A stretch of 64,000 nt of DNA. Source: a virus. Taxonomy: Duplodnaviria > Caudoviricetes. This document shows positions 2 to 38,055 of this stretch, in pieces. A program made the position numbers and the translations under genes. The stretch lies in IMG/VR virus record IMGVR_UViG_3300033068_001172, positions 4,935-68,934 of that record. One strand, 5' to 3'. Numbering within the stretch: position 1 is the stretch's first letter; each line of letters begins with the position of its first letter. Below the pieces are notes generated by a model. That model did no database searches. It was not told the origin of the DNA and worked only from the letters and a program-made list of their open reading frames with translations.

Positions 2-3000
2 CCCGCACAGGGCGAAACGTCAACAGCAGAAATTCAACCCACCCAAGACCATGCCGCTGGAACAAAAAACATCGAGGAAGGCGTTCGTGCAGAACCTGCG
101 CCAGGAGATCAAAGCCGGGAAGTCGAAAGCCCAGAGTCTCGCGATAGCGTACTCCGTGCAGAGGAAGAACGAGCACAAGAAGTAGCTCCGAAAACCTTCC
201 GTCGGCTGACGACCGAAGAAACGAAAGGCCTCCAAGACATGGCCCTGCATCGTTTCAACGTTGATCCCGAGATTCTTCAACGTATTCGCGACAAATTGGG
301 CTTCGACATCAGCCCGGACCAAGCGGCTGCCGTGGCCGTCGAGTTTGTGCAGCAAGCCCGTGAGCGGGGGGAGATGGCACTGATCGGCGACGCATTGGCG
401 GATCAGCCTGAATGGGCTTACCGCGACGCGTGGAAAGCTCTGAACCCTCCTGCCAACATCAACGTGTGGGCTCCGCAGATCAACGAGCCTGCTGCGGCCA
501 ATATCAATGGCCATACGGTCGTCGGCACTGTCGGCGCTCCACTGCCGGGGGGAAAGACCAATTTCCACTACAACTGGAACGGCAAGCCTCAGACCGCCAC
601 TGTGCCAGTCAGTCAACTCTCGCGCCCCGTCACCGCGCTGTCCGAAGCCCCGCGCTACATCTACACGCAGGAGCAGAACAGCCGCAAAGCGGGCAAGCAC
701 ATTCCAGTTACGCCGGGGGTGCATGAAAACTTCAACTTCCGTCAGGCGTTCGCCTCGATGGCCGAAGACAAGTCGCTCTCACGCATCTATCAGGAGATCG
801 CCCGCATCCTGTCCAAGATGCCGCAGTTCACCAACATGGACCTGCACATCGTCGCCGATGGCCGCCGACCCTACGCTGGTGAGTACACTCACACCAACGG
901 CAGGTCCGCCATCGCCATCAACCTGCGGCAGGTCGCCCGTGGCAAGGTGGATGCGCTCGGCACTTTGCTGCACGAAGCACTGCATCACGTCACGCTGGCC
1001 AAGGTCCGCGATCCGCAGGGCGACGTGGAGCTGGACGCCGCGCACGCTCTCAACAGCATCCGTCTGAAGCTGGCCAAGGTGGCCGGAGCAGAACGGTTCG
1101 GCTACGAGCTGGGCAGCAACGAAGAGTTCATCACCGGCGTGTTCACCCACCCCGGCTTTCAAGACTTCCTCGCGTCACTGCCGGAGGACTTTTCTCCCGG
1201 GTCGCACGCGGGCAAGTTCCGTTCGCTGCTCAGTGAGATTTTCCGCCGCATCGCCGAACTGGTCACAGGCAAGCACGTAGCCAAGGGCAGCACGTTGGAA
1301 CAGTCCATGGCTTCCATCCTGGCGCTGTTCGAAACACCCCACCGTGTGCTCGATCTGGGGCCGTTGCAGAAGCTGGGCCCAGTGCAGAGCCGAGCCGAAG
1401 GCTACCGCTCCCCCGCCGACCTGCTGGCCGAGACCGCTGCCAAGATGCGCGGCGAGAAGTCTGAAAAGCCTGCGGGCCTCAACAGCATGTTCAACCCGAA
1501 GCCGGGTCGTCCGGCCACCGGTGAGCGTACGCTGTTCGAGACGCCGAAGAAACCTGCCATCAACCTCACCACCGCCTACCAGAAAGCGCAGACTGGCCGC
1601 AGCACGGCATGGGTGCCCATCAAGGACGTGTACGAGCAGGCCAAGGCATCTGACCCGTCACTGACGCCCGAGGCGTTCATGGCTCACATCAACGAGCAGA
1701 ACGACACCGGCGGCATCATGGTCAGTCCTGTGGAGCAGGTGTCCACGGTGGAGGCTGCCAGACCGTTTGTCGTTGGCGCGGCTGGCGTGGAGATGCTGGT
1801 GCCTGAGATGACTCCAAAGAGCGAGGCTGAGAGCAACGTCACACCTGAGCAAGACGCCGAGTATATGCAGGCCGTGAAAGACGGCGATGTCGCCAAGCAG
1901 CAGGCCATGGTGGATGCGGCGGCGAAGGCTGCGGGGTATGACAAACTGCTCCACCACGGCACACCTGAGAGCACTTATACGCCGGGCGAGTGGGTTGGAG
2001 GTGATGCCTCGAACAGGTCGAAGTTGGAAGAAATGGCGTCTCGTTTCGGTATCAATGGATTCGATGCAGTAGCGAGCGTTCTTGAGCGGTGGAAAGAGTC
2101 TGGGATTCTTTCCAAGAAAGGCGCAACCGATGAAGACGTTGCCAATGCTAGAACATGGCAGAATCAGGCCAAAAGCGGATACCAATCCAGAGGAACCCAC
2201 GCGCTGAACTTTAATGAGTTCGAGATGCCAAGCGGCGAGCAGGAATTAGGCACCCATCTTGGCACCGTGGAGCAAGCCCTAAACTTTGGGGAGTACGCTC
2301 ATCCGTTTTTTGTAAAACTTGGGCGCGAAGTCAGGCTGGCAGATTTAGGCACTTGGGATTATCAAGCCGTTATGATGGCCCTCAGAAAGAAGGGGGTTAA
2401 AATCTCTGACGCGGAGTATGAGGCTGTTTACAACGCCAATGATAACAACCAAGCATTGAGAGAATTACTTATCAGCAAAAGCGTAAATTCCATCGTTTAT
2501 AAAAACGAAGCGGAGGCGAGAGGGGACAGCTACATCGTCTTCAACCCCAACCAGATCAAATCCGCCGACCCCATCACCCGCGATGCCGATGGCAACGTGA
2601 TCCCGCTCTCGCAACGGTTCAATCCCGAGAGCAACAGTACGCTTTACAGTCTGGCCGAGGAGCAAGGTCCCCCCGGCGTCACTGACATCGGCGGCGAGGC
2701 CGAGCCTGCCGATGGCAAAGGCACCCAGCTTCACCAGAAGGAGCCTACCGCCATCGGCTCGACGTACACCACTCCCGCTGACATCACGCTGCAAGAGAAG
2801 CGCACTCAAGAAGAGACGCTGGCGAAGGCACGCACCATCATTGGTGAAAGCATCAAAGCCGATGGTCCGATCAAGGGTCGTCGTGCCGCACTTGATCGCT
2901 TTCGTCTCGACACCAGCATCCCGCCCGAAGTGCGTGCAGCGGGCACCGGCATGATTGCCCAGCAGTCCGACATCATGGCGAACCTCGAAACAGGTCCGCA

Positions 3001-6000
3001 GCAGTTGCTGCTCGACGAGATGACGGACGAAGCGGCCAAGCTCTCCGGCGTCATCGCCTCCGACCCCGACTCCTTCCAAAACCTCAAGGCCGACGCCAAC
3101 CTCAACATCGACAAGATGGCCGAGGAGGCCGGACGAACCCTGAACATTTTCAACGTGTTCCGCCGTCTGACTCCTGAAGGATTCCTCCGCCGTATGACGC
3201 GTAAGTACAACGACACTGTGCGTGAGAAGGTGGGACAGAATTTTGATGTGCCGGTTGAGAAGGTGGAGAGTGAGATCGCTCTGCTGCGTCGCATGGCGCG
3301 GGAGTCCACGTCGCCGGAACGGCGCAAGGCAATCCTGGCCGCGATCAAAGCTTACAAGCAGCACGACATCGACGCCAAAAAGCTGATCGAGGCCCTGTTC
3401 CCGCAGGCCGGGTTCCGCGCCCGCATGAACAAGGGTGGTGAATCGCTGGTGCGAGACTTCTTCCAGATGATGGCTGGCCCCCGTGATGGCAAAGGCCCGC
3501 TGGCCGAGTTCGACGAGACCATTCAAGGCGCTCTGTCCAGCATGCTGCGCAAAGTGATGGAGGCGCAAGGTCTTGTCGCCAAGAACGCCAGCAACCAGAT
3601 GACCGACATCGACAAGATGGTGCGCGCCGTCAGCGGTGATGAACTGCGCTTCGACAAGATCGCTGCCGCCGATGACGCGATGCAGCAGGAGCTGGCCAAG
3701 ATCCAAGACCCCGAACGCCGCACCACGTTGCAGCAGGCGTGGGAGGAGGCCACGTCCAAGATGTTCACCAACATCGCTTCAGATGCCACCGTGCGCCGCG
3801 CCATCAACGCTGAACTGAAAAGTGCGAACGTCGATTGGACGAAGATGTTCGACACCAACCAGCAGCCGACCGCCATTCGCGGCAGGGTGGTGGACGCCGT
3901 GATGGGTAAAATAGAAGCACTGCTCACCGATCCAACGGACCCGACCGTGAAGCGCAATCTCAGCATGCTGCGCGACGAGGTGTCGAAGGCGTTCGACTTC
4001 ATCTCGGACGTGAAGCACAACCAATGGCTGGCCCAGCGTGAAGCCGTGGAAGCTCGCCGCCGGGTGGCCGAGCACCGTGCCGCGTTCATGGCAGCCTTGC
4101 GCAACCAAGGTGTCGCGGAGCAGACCATCAACCGCATCAGCGAGAAACTGGCAGGACCGCAGCGCGGCAAGCCAGATCAGAACCCCGTGTCCGCTCTCGT
4201 TGGCGAGCACATGAAGGAGGAAGTGCCCGACTTCGTGGACAAGATGGTCGCTCTCGACGTGGACCGCGCCACCGCCGAGAAGCTGGACAAAGCCGCCAGC
4301 ACTCTGCGCACGGAGATCGCCGCTGCCGAGAAGCTCAAAGCCGCTGACCGCGCTGTGGCGGCACTCATGAAGTCTCTCAAGCCGAAGCCCCGCGCTCCTC
4401 GCGAGAAGATCGAGAAGTCTCTCAAAACCCTCTTCACCGCCGACGCTGTGGGCGCGCTCGATGACCAGGCTTTCTTCGATGCGTTCGGCGAAGCTTTTGG
4501 CATGCCACCGCTGAACGGCGAACAGCAGACCAAGATCAAGAAGCTGATTCGCGAAATCAACTCGCTGCCCAAAGGCCCCGCCCGTCTCGACAAGCAGCAG
4601 GACCTCGACGAAGAACTTGCCCTGTGGAAAGGCATCGCCGCCCGTGACGTGCTGCTCTCCGCGTGGTATGCCAACATCCTCTCCGGCGTCTCCACGCAAG
4701 GCATGGGCATGCTGGGCAACCTGCTCAACTTCGTCCCGCGCTCGCTGTTCAACGCCATCGCCAATCCCCGCAGCGCCGGTGCCTACTTCAAAGGTGCGTT
4801 CGGTGAAGGGCTCGCCACCGGCATCGAAGAAGCCAAGGCTGCGCTGAAGGGCCGGGGTCTCTACAAAGTCTCCAAGTATGGGGACAAGAATCTGGTCAGC
4901 GCCTTGGAACTGCTGCGCAAGAAAGGCCCGTCCACGCTGCCCGAGTGGGTGGCCTACATCGCCAGCGGCGGCACCCGTCTCCGCTACGTCTTCCGCATCA
5001 TGCAGGCCATCGACGCCCTGGCGTGGAACACCGCCCGCGAAGGGCATGCTTATCTCGCTGCACACCGTGCGCTGCTTGCGCAGGAGAAGGAGTCCGGCCA
5101 GAAGCGCAGCCCTGAAGAGTTTTACAAGGCGTTCATCGACAGCCTCGGCGGCGACACTGCTCAAATTGAGGAGGACCTGCGCGCCGCCCGCCAGACACTC
5201 ATTGACGCGGGACAGACTCCTGCCCTGCTCACCGTGGACCGCATGGCCCGCGATGCGCGCAACGCCCGTCGTGCGGCTGGTGGCGTCAAAGCAGGCAACC
5301 GTTTTGCTGACCGCATTGTGCTGCAACAGGAACCGGAAGGCTCGGGCAGGTTCATCAGCAGTCTGATCGACGTGTTCCAGAAGAAGGGGAACATCCTTGG
5401 CCTGCCTGTGGGGCAGATGCTGATCCCCTTCAACAAGATCGTCTCCAACCTGTTCGAGCAGTCGCTGGACTACACGCCAGTCGGTGCTCTGCGCGCCTAC
5501 CTCGGCGGCCATCTGTCGGACGTGAAGGGCATCAACAGCAAAGGCCATGCCGAGTTCAAGGAGGGCGCACAGCTTTTCGACCAGATGGAACGTCGCGAGC
5601 GCGCCATGGCCGCCACCGCCGGCATGGCTGCATCCGCCATCATCTACGCACTGGCGCACGCCTACAAGGATGAGCCGGACGAGGACGTGCCGTTCATGGT
5701 GTACGGCTGGGGTCCTGAGAGCAAGAACAAGCGCAGCCAGATGCCCAAGGGCTGGGTGCCCTACTCGATCAAGATGGGCGACCACTACGTCAAGTTTTCA
5801 GAAATGCCCTTCGGCATGATGTTAGCCGCCGCTGGCACTGCGATGGACGCCATGCGCTACAAGAACATGGACAAGAAGACATCCTCCGAGCGTCTGGCCT
5901 ATGTCCTCAAAGCGTCGGCCAAAGGGTTCATGAACCAAGGCGTCATGTCGTCACTCGACACCGCCATGGAGACCATGATGTTCCAGGCCTCCGACAAGAA

Positions 6001-6580
6001 AATTGCCGACATCCCCGTCAACGCCGTCAAAGGCTTCGTGCCTGCACAAGGCCTGCTGCGCGACATCAGCACCATCTTTGACCCGTCGAAGGTGTCCAAC
6101 GAGTCGCTGACCTCTGCCCTGCTGCGCGACATCCCGTTCGCCAAAGGTCTGGCCACCAAACCGGATCTGAACGTGTTTGGCGAACCGATCAAGATGGACG
6201 GCTACCCCATCATTCGCCGCATCGTCACCCACCGCGAGCCGCACGCCGTTGCAGACTATCTCGGCCGCAACGATCTGCACATCCCCGGCATGGAGCAGAC
6301 CATCGAGATTGGCAAGTATCTGCCGAAAGCCGCCCATGACCGCATCCAAAGCCGGGCGCTGGAACTGGGAGCCATGGAGAACGGCCTGTTCACGCCGGAG
6401 CAGAACTATGAGTTCAAGAAGCGTGCGGGCGAACTGACCAAGGCTGCCGTGCAGGACATCATGCGGGAGATCCCGAAGGTTACTGACGACAAGCAGCGCA
6501 AGCATGTGCAGAGCGTCATCGACAAGAGGGTTGAAAATGCACGCAAGCGCGCCATGTTGGAAGCAGTACCATTGAAATGA
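2..6580 (+). CDS. Giant polyvalent internal virion / DNA-ejection protein, 5'-truncated by the window (>2190 aa). Contains a zincin-like HExxH metallopeptidase, an ADP-ribosyltransferase-like module and a long helical C-terminal region
   Basis: The frame of the 239..6580 ORF has no stop from base 2 (PAQGETSTAEIQ...KGLQD-MALHRF), so the true start lies upstream. Motifs: GTLLHEALHHVT...NEEFITGV; LLHHGT...SYIVFNPNQIKSADPITRD..GNVIPLSQRFN; C-terminal GWVPYSIKMGDHYVKFSEMPFG resembling large-polyvalent-protein C-terminal domains. Confidence 0.8.
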   Translation, partial: PAQGETSTAEIQPTQDHAAGTKNIEEGVRAEPAPGDQSREVESPESRDSVLRAEEERAQEVAPKTFRRLTTEETKGLQDMALHRFNVDPEILQRIRDKLGFDISPDQAAAVAVEFVQQARERGEMALIGDALADQPEWAYRDAWKALNPPANINVWAPQINEPAAANINGHTVVGTVGAPLPGGKTNFHYNWNGKPQTATVPVSQLSRPVTALSEAPRYIYTQEQNSRKAGKHIPVTPGVHENFNFRQAFASMAEDKSLSRIYQEIARILSKMPQFTNMDLHIVADGRRPYAGEYTHTNGRSAIAINLRQVARGKVDALGTLLHEALHHVTLAKVRDPQGDVELDAAHALNSIRLKLAKVAGAERFGYELGSNEEFITGVFTHPGFQDFLASLPEDFSPGSHAGKFRSLLSEIFRRIAELVTGKHVAKGSTLEQSMASILALFETPHRVLDLGPLQKLGPVQSRAEGYRSPADLLAETAAKMRGEKSEKPAGLNSMFNPKPGRPATGERTLFETPKKPAINLTTAYQKAQTGRSTAWVPIKDVYEQAKASDPSLTPEAFMAHINEQNDTGGIMVSPVEQVSTVEAARPFVVGAAGVEMLVPEMTPKSEAESNVTPEQDAEYMQAVKDGDVAKQQAMVDAAAKAAGYDKLLHHGTPESTYTPGEWVGGDASNRSKLEEMASRFGINGFDAVASVLERWKESGILSKKGATDEDVANARTWQNQAKSGYQSRGTHALNFNEFEMPSGEQELGTHLGTVEQALNFGEYAHPFFVKLGREVRLADLGTWDYQAVMMALRKKGVKISDAEYEAVYNANDNNQALRELLISKSVNSIVYKNEAEARGDSYIVFNPNQIKSADPITRDADGNVIPLSQRFNPESNSTLYSLAEEQGPPGVTDIGGEAEPADGKGTQLHQKEPTAIGSTYTTPADITLQEKRTQEETLAKARTIIGESIKADGPIKGRRAALDRFRLDTSIPPEVRAAGTGMIAQQSDIMANLETGPQQLLLDEMTDEAAKLSGVIASDPDSFQNLKADANLNIDKMAEEAGRTLNIFNVFRRLTPEGFLRRMTRKYNDTVREKVGQNFDVPVEKVESEIALLRRMARESTSPERRKAILAAIKAYKQHDIDAKKLIEALFPQAGFRARMNKGGESLVRDFFQMMAGPRDGKGPLAEFDETIQGALSSMLRKVMEAQGLVAKNASNQMTDIDKMVRAVSGDELRFDKIAAADDAMQQELAKIQDPERRTTLQQAWEEATSKMFTNIASDATVRRAINAELKSANVDWTKMFDTNQQPTAIRGRVVDAVMGKIEALLTDPTDPTVKRNLSMLRDEVSKAFDFISDVKHNQWLAQREAVEARRRVAEHRAAFMAALRNQGVAEQTINRISEKLAGPQRGKPDQNPVSALVGEHMKEEVPDFVDKMVALDVDRATAEKLDKAASTLRTEIAAAEKLKAADRAVAALMKSLKPKPRAPREKIEKSLKTLFTADAVGALDDQAFFDAFGEAFGMPPLNGEQQTKIKKLIREINSLPKGPARLDKQQDLDEELALWKGIAARDVLLSAWYANILSGVSTQGMGMLGNLLNFVPRSLFNAIANPRSAGAYFKGAFGEGLATGIEEAKAALKGRGLYKVSKYGDKNLVSALELLRKKGPSTLPEWVAYIASGGTRLRYVFRIMQAIDALAWNTAREGHAYLAAHRALLAQEKESGQKRSPEEFYKAFIDSLGGDTAQIEEDLRAARQTLIDAGQTPALLTVDRMARDARNARRAAGGVKAGNRFADRIVLQQEPEGSGRFISSLIDVFQKKGNILGLPVGQMLIPFNKIVSNLFEQSLDYTPVGALRAYLGGHLSDVKGINSKGHAEFKEGAQLFDQMERRERAMAATAGMAASAIIYALAHAYKDEPDEDVPFMVYGWGPESKNKRSQMPKGWVPYSIKMGDHYVKFSEMPFGMMLAAAGTAMDAMRYKNMDKKTSSERLAYVLKASAKGFMNQGVMSSLDTAMETMMFQASDKKIADIPVNAVKGFVPAQGLLRDISTIFDPSKVSNESLTSALLRDIPFAKGLATKPDLNVFGEPIKMDGYPIIRRIVTHREPHAVADYLGRNDLHIPGMEQTIEIGKYLPKAAHDRIQSRALELGAMENGLFTPEQNYEFKKRAGELTKAAVQDIMREIPKVTDDKQRKHVQSVIDKRVENARKRAMLEAVPLK
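51..185 (+). CDS. Small basic protein (44 aa) nested out of frame inside the giant gene
   Basis: Reads MPLEQKTSRKAFVQNLRQEIKAGKSKAQSLAIAYSVQRKNEHKK*. It resembles a common small phage protein pattern (MPL..G.S....S.NI..E.KAGK...QA.AIAYS), and the ATG has the A/C-rich context used by other genes here. Confidence 0.55.
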   Translation: MPLEQKTSRKAFVQNLRQEIKAGKSKAQSLAIAYSVQRKNEHKK

Positions 6581-7218
6581 AACGCCCTGCCAACGAATCC
6601 GTAGTGCCGCCAGGCGCACGCTGGAAATACCTCGACACCCTCACCGGCATCCCGTTTTCCACCAGCAACCTGACCGTGCTGCTGCAAGAGGTGCGGACGC
6701 AGCGCCGGGCCAACGGGTTCGAGATCGAGAGCGGCTGGGAGGCCGTGGTGCTGCATGAGATGTGCGAGCAGAATCCCAGCATCCCGTGCATCGAGGCCGG
6801 GCAGCAGGAGATCCCGATGACCGGGGATGACATAAAGCGGTTCCTGCTCACGCTCGAAGAGCAACTGGGCAAAGAGCTGGTCAGTGAGGAGGAGCACAGC
6901 CGCCGCGCCGACATCTGCCTGACTTGCCCGAAACTGGGCTACGTGTCATGCGTGTTCCCCTGCGGCTGGGTGAGCCGGAAGCTGACTGAGCTTCTCGGTG
7001 GTCGGCGGATTCACAGGCCGGCGGAGTTCTTCAAGAGGGGTTGTACCGCGTGCCACTGCGACGTTACGAGCAAGACGTACTACCCGCTCGACGTGCTCAA
7101 GACTGTTGACCAGAAGCTGGGGAAAAACCCTGACTACTGGGAGCACTGCTGGATGCGTGAGCCAGCGAAAGAAATTACCTCCGAAGAGCAGCGTCTTATC
7201 GACAAGCAGGAGAGCTGA
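6577..7218 (+). CDS. Cys-rich hypothetical protein, probable zinc binding
   Basis: 213 aa; ATGA overlap with the giant gene; CLTCPK, CVFPCG, CTACHC and EHCW motifs. Confidence 0.7.
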   Translation: MKRPANESVVPPGARWKYLDTLTGIPFSTSNLTVLLQEVRTQRRANGFEIESGWEAVVLHEMCEQNPSIPCIEAGQQEIPMTGDDIKRFLLTLEEQLGKELVSEEEHSRRADICLTCPKLGYVSCVFPCGWVSRKLTELLGGRRIHRPAEFFKRGCTACHCDVTSKTYYPLDVLKTVDQKLGKNPDYWEHCWMREPAKEITSEEQRLIDKQES

Positions 7219-7227
7219 GTTGGTATT

Positions 7228-7310
7228 TGGTACCATCGCTTGGACTCGAACCAAGAACTTTGACGCAATGTACACTTGCGGCCCGCCTCTACCAATTGGG
7301 CTACGATGGT
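7228..7310 (-). tRNA. Atypical tRNA or tRNA-like gene, encoded CCA, GTA (Tyr) at the anticodon position, over-long anticodon arm
   Basis: Minus strand: ACCATCG/CGATGGT 7-bp acceptor stem + A + CCA; D-arm GCC-CAATTGGTAGA-GGC; T-arm CTTGG-TTCGAGT-CCAAG; CGCAA-GTGTACA-TTGCG hairpin with 6 extra nt around it. Confidence 0.75.
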
Positions 7311-7315
7311 TTCTG

Positions 7316-7449
7316 GAAAACAGAGTTCAGCAGACCAGACGATCCATTACCCAGCGCACAAAAAGATAATTCAGTCAGGCTTGTTCGCATTTTCAGCACC
7401 CGAACACTTCTCTGTCTGGCGTCATTCCAATCCGCTGAACTCTGTTTTC
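7316..7449 (-). ncRNA. Candidate structured non-coding RNA domain B
   Basis: Perfect 16-bp inverted repeat GAAAACAGAGTTCAGC (7316-7331) / GCTGAACTCTGTTTTC (7434-7449) enclosing nested CCAGAC/GTCTGG and TGTTCG/CGAACA stems. No credible ORF. Strand inferred from neighbours. Confidence 0.5.
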
Positions 7450-7457
7450 TTGAAGAG

Positions 7458-7586
7458 AGCCACCGCTCGGTTTCCCGATTACGCATGCACACGGCGGCAT
7501 TTTCTCACATTTAAATCTACATCCGGTTTGCTTCCCTGTCGGCTCCCGTGGACCTGCCTTGCGGCGTGACAGCATGTGGTGTGGCT
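7458..7586 (-). ncRNA. Candidate structured non-coding RNA domain A
   Basis: Closing stem AGCCAC/GTGGCT, inner CTGTC/GACAG, and two GNRA tetraloop hairpins on the minus strand (GCC-GCAA-GGC, TCGG-GAAA-CCGA). Confidence 0.5.
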
Positions 7587-7596
7587 ACTTCATATG

Positions 7597-7619
7597 GGTA
7601 AAGGTTCCGTGAGGAATTG
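7597..7619. repeat. 23-bp direct repeat, copy 1
   Basis: GGTAAAGGTTCCGTGAGGAATTG, identical to 7956-7978. Confidence 0.9.
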
Positions 7620-7658
7620 GAACCTCATGATGCGCGCCAAAGTGGGAACGTCAACTGT

Positions 7659-7952
7659 TTATTTTCTTCCACCAGTGACGGGTTCAATCCGACCATCAGC
7701 TTCCCGTCGGACAATAACCGTGGAAAAGTTGAAGCCAATTACGTCAGGCAGTTTGTCTTTCTTGAGGAGCGCCTTGATCTTGCCTCCCAGGCGCTCAGCG
7801 TCACTGGCGAAGTATCGGTCCAACGGCCTGTCCGGGAACACGTACGGAGTGATCTTCTTTTTCGGCACAGGCAGCGCAGCCCGAATGCTTTCGACCGGGG
7901 CAAGTGCCAAGGCGGCCAGCCGTTTGAATAATCCACGTCTGTTGGTGTTCAT
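7659..7952 (-). CDS. Hypothetical protein with twin-arginine-like N-terminus
   Basis: 97 aa; MNTNRRGLFKRLAALALAPV. Confidence 0.6.
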   Translation of the reverse strand: MNTNRRGLFKRLAALALAPVESIRAALPVPKKKITPYVFPDRPLDRYFASDAERLGGKIKALLKKDKLPDVIGFNFSTVIVRREADGRIEPVTGGRK

Positions 7953-7955
7953 AAT

Positions 7956-7978
7956 GGTAAAGGTTCCGTGAGGAATTG
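7956..7978. repeat. 23-bp direct repeat, copy 2
   Basis: Identical to 7597-7619; lies immediately 5' of the ATG of the 97-aa ORF on the minus strand. Confidence 0.9.
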
Positions 7979-8247
7979 AACAGCCTCCGCTCTGAACCCT
8001 TCCTGCGGCATATCAGACTACCACGATGTCAATTCAGTTTGGAGGCAGTTCGCCAAGTTCGGCGGGTCGTCCGCCTGAAGGGCCAAATGGCTTGCCCAAA
8101 GCGTATAGGTAATGAAGTGCTCACTCACCCTCTCGTAAGAGAAGCTTTTCAAGTATCCTGATCTACTTGCCAGTATTTCTTTGTCTTACGGGGATAACGG
8201 GATGCTGCTAGCGCCTTGAGCATAGTATGCAGAAACTTCTCAGTCTG

Positions 8248-37319: not shown

Positions 37320-38055
37320 TTATTGGATCTCGCTCAACTGCTCCAGCTCTGCTTCCGTGAAGAAGGCCCGCAGGCGCTTGGCGAACGCGGAGCAGCGGCG
37401 GAACATTTGCAGGGCTTTGATGCTGTCTTGGCTGTCCCCATACTCGGAGCACCAGTCCGCGAACGTGGCGGGGGGTGTACGCGTCGCCGCTGATGCAGGC
37501 GAGCACGTCGTACGGTTTGACGGTCTGAATGTCCTTCTCCGCGTCTGCGATGCTGCCCCAGAAGTCGAACGTGAGACGGGTTGAACCTGGCGCAGAGCAA
37601 AGCCTTTCACCTGTTTGAGGGGCTGGGGGTTTGCTGAGCGTCACCCGGTAATGGTGACCATGTTTGCCGTTGTCACTCCATGCCGGGGTTTTGCTGTCGC
37701 TGAGCGTGGCGCGGAACTTGATCCCGTTGGACGTGAGGAAGGTTTCGGCCTGATCATTGTAGAACGAACGGGCGGGGTATCGAGTGCAATACTCTTGTAC
37801 TCTTGAAACCATACCCTCTCCTGCCTGCTTCAAGTGCAGGTGTTCGTGCCAGTCTGCCAGCACTTCCACCTCGGAGTCTTCTGAGTATGCCTTCGCGATA
37901 CTGTCGATGCACTGACCGCTTGAGCCGTCATAATGACCGCTGGCGGTGAACTCGGCATACCCGTTGCGGTAGTTGATGCCAAAGTCAATTTGTGCCTTGC
38001 CGTCCGGGGTTTTGTAGGAGCCGGAGATGTCTTGTGCTGCCTGTGTCGTTTTCAT
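37320..38055 (-). CDS. Hypothetical early protein interrupted by a +1 frameshift in a C6 tract (244 aa if joined)
   Basis: Frame 1 ...YDVLACISGDAYTP continues as ATFADWCSEYGDSQDSIKALQMF only if one C of the run at 37470-37475 is skipped. Confidence 0.6.

What the first reader, a model, noticed from the sequence alone, without database searches (positions are those of the whole stretch)
7228..7310. tRNA-like gene with an anticodon arm about 3 bp too long
Seen in sequence: perfect acceptor and T stems, canonical TTCGA loop, encoded CCA and a D-arm. There are 29 nt between D-stem and T-stem instead of about 23. It folds as G26 + GGCCGCAA / GTGTACA loop / TTGCGTCA + AAGTT: five perfect pairs, then one mismatch, a G-C pair and a G-A. 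The loop centre is GTA (Tyr), but there is no long variable arm as in bacterial tRNA-Tyr. Inference: it may not decode normally and could be a tRNA mimic, for example a decoy for anticodon nucleases or tRNA-sensing defences, or a ribosome or synthetase ligand.
Basis: partly seen in the sequence, partly recalled or inferred. Interest (0 to 1): 0.7.

Follow-up and report, generated by a model that had tools for sequence, protein, structure and literature searches.

The report
Remodelled tRNA ending a phage RNA operon
A phage carries one tRNA-shaped gene with an intact leucine-tRNA body but six extra bases and an abnormal loop around its anticodon; it closes a conserved non-coding RNA operon in which related phages carry other altered tRNA shapes, so it probably serves as an RNA processing and stability module, not as a codon reader.

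Summary
The gene is real. It lies on the minus strand at 7310..7228, is 83 nt long and encodes CCA. ARAGORN calls it tRNA-Tyr(GUA). The Rfam tRNA model gives 37.2 bits, but only by skipping the anticodon arm.

There are 29 nt between the D and T stems instead of 23. That these extra bases form a longer helix is not shown: 43% of random flanks pair as well, and the minimum-energy fold re-pairs the 5' extras with the D stem.

The body is not tyrosine-type. Its D arm and T loop match short (type I) tRNA-Leu letter for letter, and it keeps the known leucine identity elements. The loop has G32 and C37, each found in about 1% of 371 reference tRNAs.

No homologue shares the insertion, so it is a singleton.

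Context is the main new result. The gene ends a promoter-driven non-coding operon that related phages also carry. It replaced their stem-closed 3' module. Other relatives hold different remodelled tRNA shapes there.

Best reading (0.45): a non-decoding tRNA-shaped processing and stability module. Rivals: a decaying tRNA gene, a decoy or synthetase ligand, a weak decoder.

The scan noted similar phage operons of tRNA-shaped RNAs on other genomes, but not this sequence.

The parts
7228..7310 (-). tRNA-like gene, 83 nt. Acceptor 7310-7304 / 7238-7232; discriminator A at 7231; CCA at 7230-7228.
   Evidence: ARAGORN tRNA-Tyr(gta) with the anticodon at position 38. Rfam tRNA 37.2 bits.
7285..7301 (-). 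D arm GCCC-AAUUGGUAG-AGGC, identical to the type I / type II tRNA-Leu family.
   Evidence: Exact-pattern scans: 8 viral, 11 metagenome and 62 genome hits, nearly all tRNA-Leu.
7261..7284 (-). Aberrant region. Connector G, three extra bases GGC, a 5-bp stem CGCAA/UUGCG, the loop GUGUACA (7275-7269; anticodon GUA 7273-7271), then three extra bases UCA.
   Evidence: Sequence, energies of the alternative folds, random-flank control, loop statistics.
7239..7260 (-). Variable loop AAGUU and T arm CUUGG-UUCGAGU-CCAAG.
   Evidence: Infernal alignment. The T-arm motif is enriched in these operons.
7316..7449 (-). Domain B: a structured RNA closed by a 24-bp stem (G-U pairs included). It ends 5 nt before the tRNA 5' end.
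   Evidence: -55.5 kcal/mol, z = -5.0. The same stem sequence occurs in G001, L073, L082/83, L085/86 and L087.
7524..7565 (-). 42-nt core of domain A, identical in five other phage contigs.
7585..7593 (-). Conserved AUGAAGUAG (UAA in some relatives) at the 5' end of the non-coding transcript.
7627..7654 (-). Promoter-like site TTGACG-16-CATCAT in front of the non-coding operon. 'AAAATAAACAGTTGACG' is conserved in relatives.
7209..7223 (-). Remnant of the 3' strand of the ancestral closing stem (CCAACUCAGCUCUCC), just 3' of the tRNA-like gene.
   Evidence: Alignment A4 with L087, L073 and L082.
6577..7218 (+). Convergent 213-aa gene, used as the anchor to find related loci. Its last 18 codons read through the remnant.

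Best explanation
The gene derives from a short (type I) tRNA-Leu. Its acceptor stem, D arm, T arm and discriminator are kept intact. Its anticodon region has been remodelled: three extra bases on each side of the stem, and a loop with G32 and C37.

It is the last module of a promoter-driven, non-coding phage transcript: promoter, AUGAAGUAG, domain A, the stem-closed domain B, then the tRNA shape. It replaced the stem-closed 3' module that related phages carry at that place.

Proposed working (inferred, not shown):
1. Host RNase III cuts the 24-bp stem of domain B.
2. RNase P cuts at A1, five bases downstream of that stem. This fixes the 3' boundary of the upstream RNA and the 5' end of the tRNA shape.
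3. The compact fold with its encoded CCA resists 3' exonucleases.

Only the acceptor/T helix and the D/T elbow are needed for this role, so the anticodon region is free to change. It may even be selected not to decode, because a leucine-accepting body with a tyrosine anticodon would mistranslate.
For: Shown:
1. The body is intact. There are 7/7 acceptor and 5/5 T-stem Watson-Crick pairs, and U8, A14, A15, G18G19, U54-U55-C56, A58, G53-C61, U48 and A73 are present. All four anomalies fall in the 29 nt between the D and T stems: the extra bases 5' of the stem, the extra bases 3' of it, G32 and C37.
2. The body is leucine-type. Compared with its nearest relative, L061, it shows two double compensatory changes, at pairs 5-68 and 49-65.
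3. The operon is conserved in related phages. The 42-nt core of domain A is identical in five other contigs. The domain B stem recurs in six further loci.
4. Alignment A4 shows a clean replacement of the relatives' 3' module. A remnant of its 3' strand is left at 7209-7223.
5. The same slot holds other non-canonical tRNA shapes:
- L073: Rfam tRNA 34.3 bits, inside an 18-bp closing stem.
- L082: a T arm inside a 19-bp stem.
- L085/86: a tRNA-Glu type with a 13-14 nt insertion in the D loop, 3 nt after domain B.
- G003: a 103-nt tRNA shape with a 12-bp anticodon arm and CCA.
6. The canonical T-arm motif occurs 7 times in 5.1 kb of these operons, in 6 of 11 operons. It occurs once in about 660 kb (both strands) of six related phage genomes outside them.

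From the literature:
- RNase P cleaves a tRNA-like module of M. smegmatis YrlA, and its authors propose that the module protects the RNA from nucleases (PMC4201824).
- tRNA-like t-elements are proposed cleavage signals for RNase P and RNase Z (PMC1920247).
Against: - No orthologue of this particular module was found in IMG/VR, JGI metagenomes, GTDB genomes or GenBank phages. Selection on it cannot be tested by covariation.
- A normal tRNA-Pro (69.8 bits) sits in the same operon in L082. Ordinary tRNAs therefore do travel here, and this one could simply be a damaged copy.
- A processing signal does not need a full D arm, leucine identity elements or an encoded CCA. Their retention hints at something more, or at a recent origin.
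- The relatives' modules on 18-19 bp closing stems are not obvious RNase P substrates.
Confidence: 0.45

Rival explanations
1. It is a decaying tRNA gene. A type I tRNA-Leu-family cargo gene was recently hit by a 3-nt slippage insertion (GGC next to GGCG) and by loop mutations, and now has no function. The body looks intact only because little time has passed.
For: - It is a singleton: every sequence relative has a normal arm, with D-to-T spacing 25-28 or type II.
- The pairing of the extra bases is no better than chance.
- The nearest relatives, L061 and L063, already have 7-nt variable loops, so only one 3-nt insertion plus one more base is needed.
- The region is variable cargo in related phages.
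- The terminator downstream is degenerate compared with that of L087.
Against: - All four anomalies fall within 29 of the 83 nt and none disrupts a stem or an invariant base of the body. Under random placement this has a chance of roughly (29/83)^4, about 0.015. This is an inference: which positions can be scored differs between the two regions.
- The same slot in L085/86 holds a second remodelled tRNA, also with an intact acceptor/T helix.
- It is the only tRNA-like gene in a genome estimated to be complete.
Confidence: 0.25
2. It is a tRNA mimic that acts as a ligand or decoy. The leucine-type body is bound, and perhaps charged, by host LeuRS, or by enzymes or toxins that read the acceptor end. 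Alternatively the exposed U33-G34-U35-A36 loop soaks up enzymes that read Tyr-type loops, such as tRNA-guanine transglycosylase or nucleases specific for GUN anticodons. In both cases the abnormal anticodon region keeps it off the ribosome.
For: - It carries the full E. coli-type leucine identity set: A73, A14, A15-U48, G18G19, A20a and the D/T-loop contacts. The anticodon arm is dispensable for leucylation (PMC9976931).
- Type I tRNA-Leu is leucylated in Streptomyces coelicolor (PMC6614811).
- CCA is encoded.
- UGU at positions 33-35 in a 7-nt loop is shown directly by the sequence.
- The loop holds the 6-nt palindrome UGUACA, which 3.1% of random loops would. This would allow loop-loop dimers.
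Against: - No partner gene was found in the genome: no synthetase, nuclease inhibitor, RNA repair enzyme or Ro60.
- The host is unknown.
- The decoy idea predicts conservation of the loop, and there are no orthologues to test this.
- Related slot modules have unrelated loops.
Confidence: 0.13
3. It is a working, if poor, decoder. In the minimum-energy fold it has a 4-bp all-G-C D stem, a 13-nt D loop, a normal 5-bp anticodon stem and an 8-nt variable loop. It would read UAY codons and carry Leu, or less likely Tyr.
For: - That fold is favoured by 2.6 kcal/mol over the best alternative, with pair probability about 0.82.
- U33 and a 7-nt loop are present.
- UAC and UAU make up 26 per 1000 codons in the phage.
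- The Rfam score is above the gathering score.
Against: - G32 and C37 are each found in about 1% of 371 tRNAs, and none has both.
- An unmodifiable pyrimidine at position 37 next to an A36-U pair is a poor decoder (established knowledge).
- There is no base 26, and the D loop is longer than in known tRNAs.
- Bacterial TyrRS needs the long variable arm, which is absent. Leu charging would put Leu at Tyr codons.
- The score is about 17 bits below its Leu relatives.
Confidence: 0.12
4. It is an assembly or chimera artefact in a metagenome-assembled contig.
For: The record is a metagenome assembly, and the reads could not be inspected.
Against: - The extra bases lie in two separate places that flank an intact hairpin.
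- Both flanks of the gene align cleanly with related phages.
- CheckV rates the record as complete.
Confidence: 0.03

Closest known systems
Type I (short variable loop) tRNA-Leu, as in Streptomyces coelicolor tRNA-Leu(CAA) (PMC6614811) and in phage tRNA arrays
   Same: - Identical 17-nt D arm and 11-nt T loop.
- A73, and a 5-nt variable loop ending in U48.
- 7/4/5 stem plan outside the anticodon region.

   Different: - Three extra bases on each side of the anticodon stem.
- Loop GUGUACA (G32, C37) with a Tyr anticodon instead of a Leu anticodon.
- A1-U72 instead of G1-C72.
- Rfam score about 17 bits lower.
t-elements of plant mitochondria (PMC1920247) and, from my own knowledge, the MALAT1 mascRNA: tRNA-like structures used as RNase P / RNase Z cutting signals
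   Same: A tRNA-shaped, non-decoding element at the end of another RNA, with an intact acceptor/T helix. This is the proposed way of working.
   Different: - Here the cloverleaf is complete, with an encoded CCA.
- The setting is a bacteriophage.
- Cleavage has not been shown.
YrlA / Y RNAs with a tRNA-like domain (Rfam RF02553; PMC4201824)
   Same: A tRNA mimic inside a non-coding RNA of bacteria and phages. The mimic keeps the D/T elbow and is recognised by tRNA enzymes.
   Different: - YrlA is circularly permuted, with a closed acceptor hairpin between the T and D arms, and it sits next to a Ro60 gene.
- Here the order is the normal tRNA order and the acceptor end is open.
- There is no Rfam match and no TROVE domain in the genome.
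tRNA-Sec, tRNA-Pyl and allo-tRNAs (natural tRNAs with 6-bp anticodon stems; from my own knowledge)
   Same: More bases than usual between the D and T arms.
   Different: Those tRNAs make up for the extra pair elsewhere and keep canonical loops. Here there is no compensation and the loop is abnormal.
Small stable RNAs co-transcribed with tRNAs in the phage T4 tRNA region (from my own knowledge)
   Same: Phage non-coding RNAs of unknown role that share a transcript with tRNA genes and are matured by host tRNA-processing enzymes.
   Different: No sequence relation. The T4 tRNAs decode.

Membership tests
Canonical elongator tRNA (Rfam RF00005) | Score at or above the gathering score | tested here: met
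   37.2 bits against 29. This was reached by a local skip of the whole anticodon arm, and the gene was missed in the whole-window gathering search.
Canonical elongator tRNA (Rfam RF00005) | 7-bp acceptor stem, D arm with G18G19, and T arm with U54-U55-C56 and A58 | tested here: met
Canonical elongator tRNA (Rfam RF00005) | One base (26) between the D and anticodon stems, a 5-bp stem, and a variable loop that is 4-5 nt or long | tested here: not met
   There are 4 connector bases and a 5-nt loop, or no base 26 with an 8-nt loop and a 13-nt D loop.
Canonical elongator tRNA (Rfam RF00005) | Anticodon loop with Y32, U33 and R37 | tested here: not met
   U33 is present. G32 occurs in 3 of 371 reference tRNAs and C37 in 5 of 371.
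Bacterial tRNA-Tyr | Anticodon GUA and A73 | tested here: met
Bacterial tRNA-Tyr | Long (type II) variable arm | tested here: not met
   Only 5-8 nt lie between the anticodon stem and the T stem, with no hairpin.
tRNA-Leu (type I branch) | D arm and D loop AAUUGGUAG-A, A15-U48, G18G19, A73 | tested here: met
   Exact match to the family signature. 58 of 62 genome hits and 18 of 19 other hits are tRNA-Leu. Identity elements are as listed in PMC9976931.
tRNA-Leu (type I branch) | Leucine anticodon (NAG or YAA) | tested here: not met
   The anticodon is GUA.
tRNA-Leu (type I branch) | Leucylation by LeuRS | not testable with these tools
   Needs an aminoacylation assay.
YrlA-type Y RNA | Rfam match, permuted tRNA-like domain and a neighbouring Ro60 (TROVE) gene | tested here: not met
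   No Rfam match. No TROVE match in the genome at E <= 10. The neighbouring 430-aa gene looks like a glycosyltransferase.
tRNA-like processing element (t-element kind) | Acceptor/T helix able to serve RNase P / RNase Z, placed at the boundary of another RNA | tested here: met
   12 of 12 pairs are intact. The element lies 5 nt after the 24-bp stem of domain B.
tRNA-like processing element (t-element kind) | Cleavage at the element in vivo or in vitro | not testable with these tools
   No RNA data.

The most novel reading that the evidence does not exclude
This clade of phages carries a modular non-coding RNA system: an invariant domain A, modules closed by stems of conserved sequence, and swappable tRNA-derived end modules. 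The window's module would be a leucine-chargeable tRNA mimic that is deliberately unable to decode. The phage would use it as a sponge or decoy for a host tRNA-directed enzyme or defence, or as an aminoacyl donor away from the ribosome.
Probability: 0.13. Interest if true: 0.75.

Novelty: new variant of a known kind. Interest (0 to 1): 0.5.

Why it matters
Phage tRNA genes are usually read as codon-usage helpers or, more recently, as replacements for tRNAs destroyed by host defences. Here the only tRNA-like gene of a complete 69-kb phage genome keeps everything a tRNA needs except a usable anticodon region. It sits in a slot where related phages keep other disabled tRNA shapes.

If these are functional, they add to the small set of bacterial and phage tRNA mimics, of which YrlA is the known example. 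They would also give a tractable case of tRNA-punctuated processing of phage non-coding RNAs.

There is a practical lesson for annotation. ARAGORN labels this gene 'tRNA-Tyr', which is almost certainly wrong about both its amino-acid identity and its function.

Tried and rejected
Searches that found nothing:
- GenBank phages, near and distant modes: no match to the locus.
- Exact 25-mer of the T arm and acceptor in IMG/VR: none.
- D-arm / T-loop pattern with a free spacer in IMG/VR, JGI metagenomes and GTDB genomes: only normal tRNA-Leu, and no second copy with the insertion. L108, which has the same 32-nt spacer, has a different arrangement: a 6-bp stem, a loop without U33 and a 9-nt variable loop.
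- Exact look-up of the window's own 213-aa protein: not on record.
- Rfam on the locus and on relatives: nothing but tRNA.
- Two literature searches for phage tRNAs with extended anticodon stems or decoy roles: no direct precedent.

Ideas rejected:
- Type II tRNA reading (17-nt arm plus an 11-nt variable arm): the stems do not pair.
- Short intron: removing 6 nt at the canonical site leaves no U33.
- attP remnant: no integrase in the genome, and a full-length gene is present.
- YrlA / Ro60 particle: no TROVE domain and the wrong topology.
- A second 'tRNA-like' hit of my own scan, at 37764-37851, has no D arm and lies inside a gene, so I treat it as chance.
- ARAGORN's 'tRNA-Glu(ctc)' in L004 was not seen by Rfam and does not form a good acceptor stem.
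- The G003 tRNA-like has no counterpart in its sister genome G007, so covariation of its long arm could not be tested.

Full report
**1. What is there**

On the minus strand, 7310..7228 encodes an 83-nt cloverleaf. Its parts are:
- acceptor ACCAUCG/CGAUGGU, 7 Watson-Crick pairs;
- U8 and A9;
- D arm GCCC-AAUUGGUAG-AGGC;
- G26;
- a 23-nt stretch;
- AAGUU;
- T arm CUUGG-UUCGAGU-CCAAG;
- discriminator A and an encoded CCA.

ARAGORN calls it tRNA-Tyr(GUA) with the anticodon at position 38. The Rfam tRNA model scores it at 37.2 bits (gathering score 29, E = 4e-6) when the locus is searched alone. It does so only by treating all 23 nt as a local insert in place of the 17-nt anticodon arm. The whole-window search at gathering thresholds missed it. 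Its closest sequence relatives score 53-55 bits. It is the only tRNA-like gene in the 68,934-bp virus record, which CheckV rates as complete.

**2. Is the arm really longer?**

The count is right: 29 nt lie between the D and T stems where the family has 23. The inner part is a normal 5-bp stem (CGCAA/UUGCG) with a 7-nt loop. Three extra bases sit on each side (GGC and UCA). Energies:

| Fold | kcal/mol |
|---|---|
| Canonical D arm, extras unpaired | -21.1 |
| 7-bp arm with one bulged C | -21.7 |
| Extra GGGC pairs with the D-stem 5' strand (13-nt D loop, no base 26, 8-nt variable loop) | -24.3 |

The last fold has a pair probability of about 0.82. ARAGORN's own solution also uses a 5-bp stem and an 8-nt variable loop. 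In 20,000 trials, 43% of random 3+3 flanks extended the hairpin at least as stably as the real flanks. The insertion is therefore real, but a selected longer helix is not demonstrated.

The loop is also abnormal. Among 371 unique tRNAs found in the loci fetched here, G32 occurs in 3 and C37 in 5. None has both, and none has its anticodon beyond position 37. The loop contains the palindrome UGUACA, which 3.1% of random 7-nt loops would.

**3. Whose body is it?**

I scanned for the exact D arm and T loop with a free spacer.
- IMG/VR gave 8 hits: 7 tRNA-Leu and one odd 'Cys'.
- JGI metagenomes gave 11 hits, all tRNA-Leu.
- GTDB genomes gave 62 hits, 58 of them tRNA-Leu.

Most are short, type I-like tRNA-Leu of 75-77 nt. 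This class is known and is leucylated in Streptomyces coelicolor (PMC6614811). The window gene keeps the E. coli-type leucine identity set: A73, A14, A15-U48, G18G19, A20a and the D/T-loop contacts. For LeuRS the anticodon arm is dispensable for charging (PMC9976931). The 'Tyr' label thus rests on three loop bases only, and the long variable arm that bacterial TyrRS needs is absent.

The nearest relative is L061, a Leu-CAA tRNA from a metagenomic tRNA array. It differs at 5 of 23 variable body positions, and these include two double compensatory changes in stems. No donor and no orthologue was found.

**4. Context**

I used the convergent 213-aa gene (6577-7218) as an anchor. This fetched 12 IMG/VR loci, 39 protein homologues and their contigs. 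The relatives share a non-coding unit on the strand of the tRNA-like gene:
- a promoter, AAAATAAACAGTTGACG;
- AUGAAGUAG or AUGAAGUAA;
- domain A, whose 42-nt core is identical in the window, L073, L077, L078, L079 and L080;
- domain B, which has a variable interior of 50-145 nt closed by an 18-24 bp stem of conserved sequence. It occurs in the window, G001, L073, L082/83, L085/86 and L087. In the window it folds at -55.5 kcal/mol, z = -5.0;
- a 3' module.

In L073, L077, L082, L087 and L004 the 3' module is closed by a second long stem, GAAGGUUGARUUGAGCG / CGCUCAACUCAGCYUUC, with compensatory differences between loci. It often encloses a tRNA-type T arm. The L073 interior scores 34.3 bits with the Rfam tRNA model.

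Alignment A4 shows homology between the window and these loci up to the end of domain B. Homology resumes at CAACUCAGCUCUCC (7209-7223). Between these points the window has CAGAA, the 83-nt gene and AAUAC. The tRNA-like gene therefore replaced the ancestral module.

In L085/86 the same place, 3 nt after domain B, holds a tRNA-Glu(UUC)-type gene with a 13-14 nt insertion in the D loop and no CCA. A more distant relative, G003, has a 103-nt tRNA shape with a 12-bp anticodon arm, a long variable arm and CCA after about 260 nt of non-coding RNA. L082 also carries an ordinary tRNA-Pro in the operon.

A strict T-arm motif occurs 7 times in 5.1 kb of these operons. It occurs once in about 660 kb (both strands) of six related genomes outside them.

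**5. What the genome offers as partners**

Pfam and PHROG scans of 57 ORFs found DNA replication, methylation and nuclease genes. They found no synthetase, CCA-adding enzyme, RNA ligase, integrase or Ro60. The gene next to the operon looks like a GT-A glycosyltransferase.

**6. Interpretation**

All four anomalies lie in the anticodon region, and the body has none. The slot repeatedly holds tRNA shapes with intact acceptor/T helices but disabled D or anticodon parts. This fits a module that is used for its tRNA frame and not for decoding.

The mechanism I favour (0.45) is tRNA-punctuated processing and end protection. RNase III cuts the long stem of domain B, RNase P cuts at A1, and the CCA-ended compact fold resists exonucleases. 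This is what is proposed for t-elements (PMC1920247) and discussed for the tRNA-like module of Y RNAs (PMC4201824). These steps are inferred; none is shown here.

The rivals are:
- a recently damaged tRNA gene (0.25). It is a singleton, one slippage insertion would suffice, and ordinary tRNAs do occur in this operon;
- a leucine-chargeable mimic or decoy (0.13);
- a poor decoder in the shifted-D-stem fold (0.12);
- an artefact (0.03).

**7. Novelty and interest**

tRNA mimics in non-coding RNAs are known, and earlier notes of this scan describe similar phage operons of tRNA-shaped RNAs on other genomes. Those notes are leads, not evidence. This sequence and this operon match no Rfam family and no GenBank phage.

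I file it as a new variant of a known kind. Interest is moderate (0.5). The operon as a whole may be more interesting than the single gene. The lack of orthologues and of RNA data limits what can be claimed.

Noticed in passing
window 7524-7593 (-); L073, L077, L078, L079, L080: Domain A of the non-coding operon has a 42-nt core that is identical in six contigs, although the neighbouring protein is only about 75-82% identical among them. It is preceded by a conserved AUGAAGUAG/UAA, where the stop codon varies and the rest does not. No Rfam family matches it.
   Followed up: partly
window 7316-7449 (-); L014 1502-1680; L073; L082; L085; L087: Domain B has an 18-24 bp closing stem of nearly fixed sequence (GAAAACAGAGUUCAGCGG / CCGCUGAACUCUGUUUUC) around interiors that are unrelated in length and sequence. 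In G001 it sits at a different genome position, after a small basic protein gene. It looks like an RNase III-type stem or a swappable cassette.
   Followed up: partly
L073 3690-3795 (-), L077 3370-3580 (-), L082 3085-3210 (-), L087 895-1010 (-), L004 3790-3890 (-): The 3' modules are closed by a second conserved long stem (GAAGGUUGARUUGAGCG...). Its inner end (GAGCGG/CCGCUC) resembles the domain B stem (CAGCGG/CCGCUG). The two module types therefore look like paralogues.
   Followed up: partly
L027 1498-1600 (-) = G003:C1:53050-53152: A 103-nt tRNA shape with a 5-bp D stem and a 4-nt loop without GG, a 12-bp anticodon arm with a 10-nt loop, a long variable arm and an encoded CCA (-40.8 kcal/mol, z = -3.05). 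It is absent from the sister genome G007, which has a second small basic protein gene there.
   Followed up: partly
L085 3088-3174 (-), L086: A tRNA-Glu(UUC)-type gene with a 13-14 nt hairpin insertion in the D loop, G73 and no CCA, lying 3 nt after domain B. Neither ARAGORN nor Rfam detects it.
   Followed up: partly
L089-L150 (GTDB genomes), L019-L026 (IMG/VR): Short (75-77 nt) tRNA-Leu genes with one invariant D arm are widespread in phage tRNA arrays and in genomes of Verrucomicrobiales, Actinomycetota, Deinococcales and others. 47 of the 62 genome hits have the type I spacing.
   Followed up: no
L108 755-814 (+), Chitinophagales MAG contig: Another aberrant tRNA with the leucine-type body and the same 32-nt spacer. 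It has a 6-bp stem, the loop UGGCUGG without U33, a 9-nt variable loop and no CCA.
   Followed up: no
L070 (-) and L071 (+), ending at the GCAGGTTCGAATCCTGCCGCGCTC match found (sequence printed): Two phage contigs of 66-74 kb carry a conserved element of about 120 nt. It ends in a canonical T arm and an acceptor 3' strand but has a large insertion in place of the D and anticodon arms. In L070 it follows two normal tRNAs.
   Followed up: no
window 7160-7218 (+); L087 840-900: The 213-aa gene is 16-18 codons longer than most homologues (195-197 aa), and it reads through the remnant of the RNA module. L087 has a strong terminator hairpin there (-24.8 kcal/mol, z = -5.9). The window's equivalent is degenerate.
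   Followed up: partly
window 7950-7984 and 7590-7625 (-): A direct repeat of about 30 nt (UUC(C)AAUUCCUCACGGAACCUUUACC), each copy preceded by a promoter-like TTGAC box. The first copy leads into a 97-aa ORF (7952..7659). The second leads into the non-coding operon.
   Followed up: no
window 2-6580 (+): The giant ORF runs off the window's 5' end. Homologues on related contigs carry LPD23 and faint ART-PolyVal Pfam hits, so it is a large polyvalent protein.
   Followed up: no
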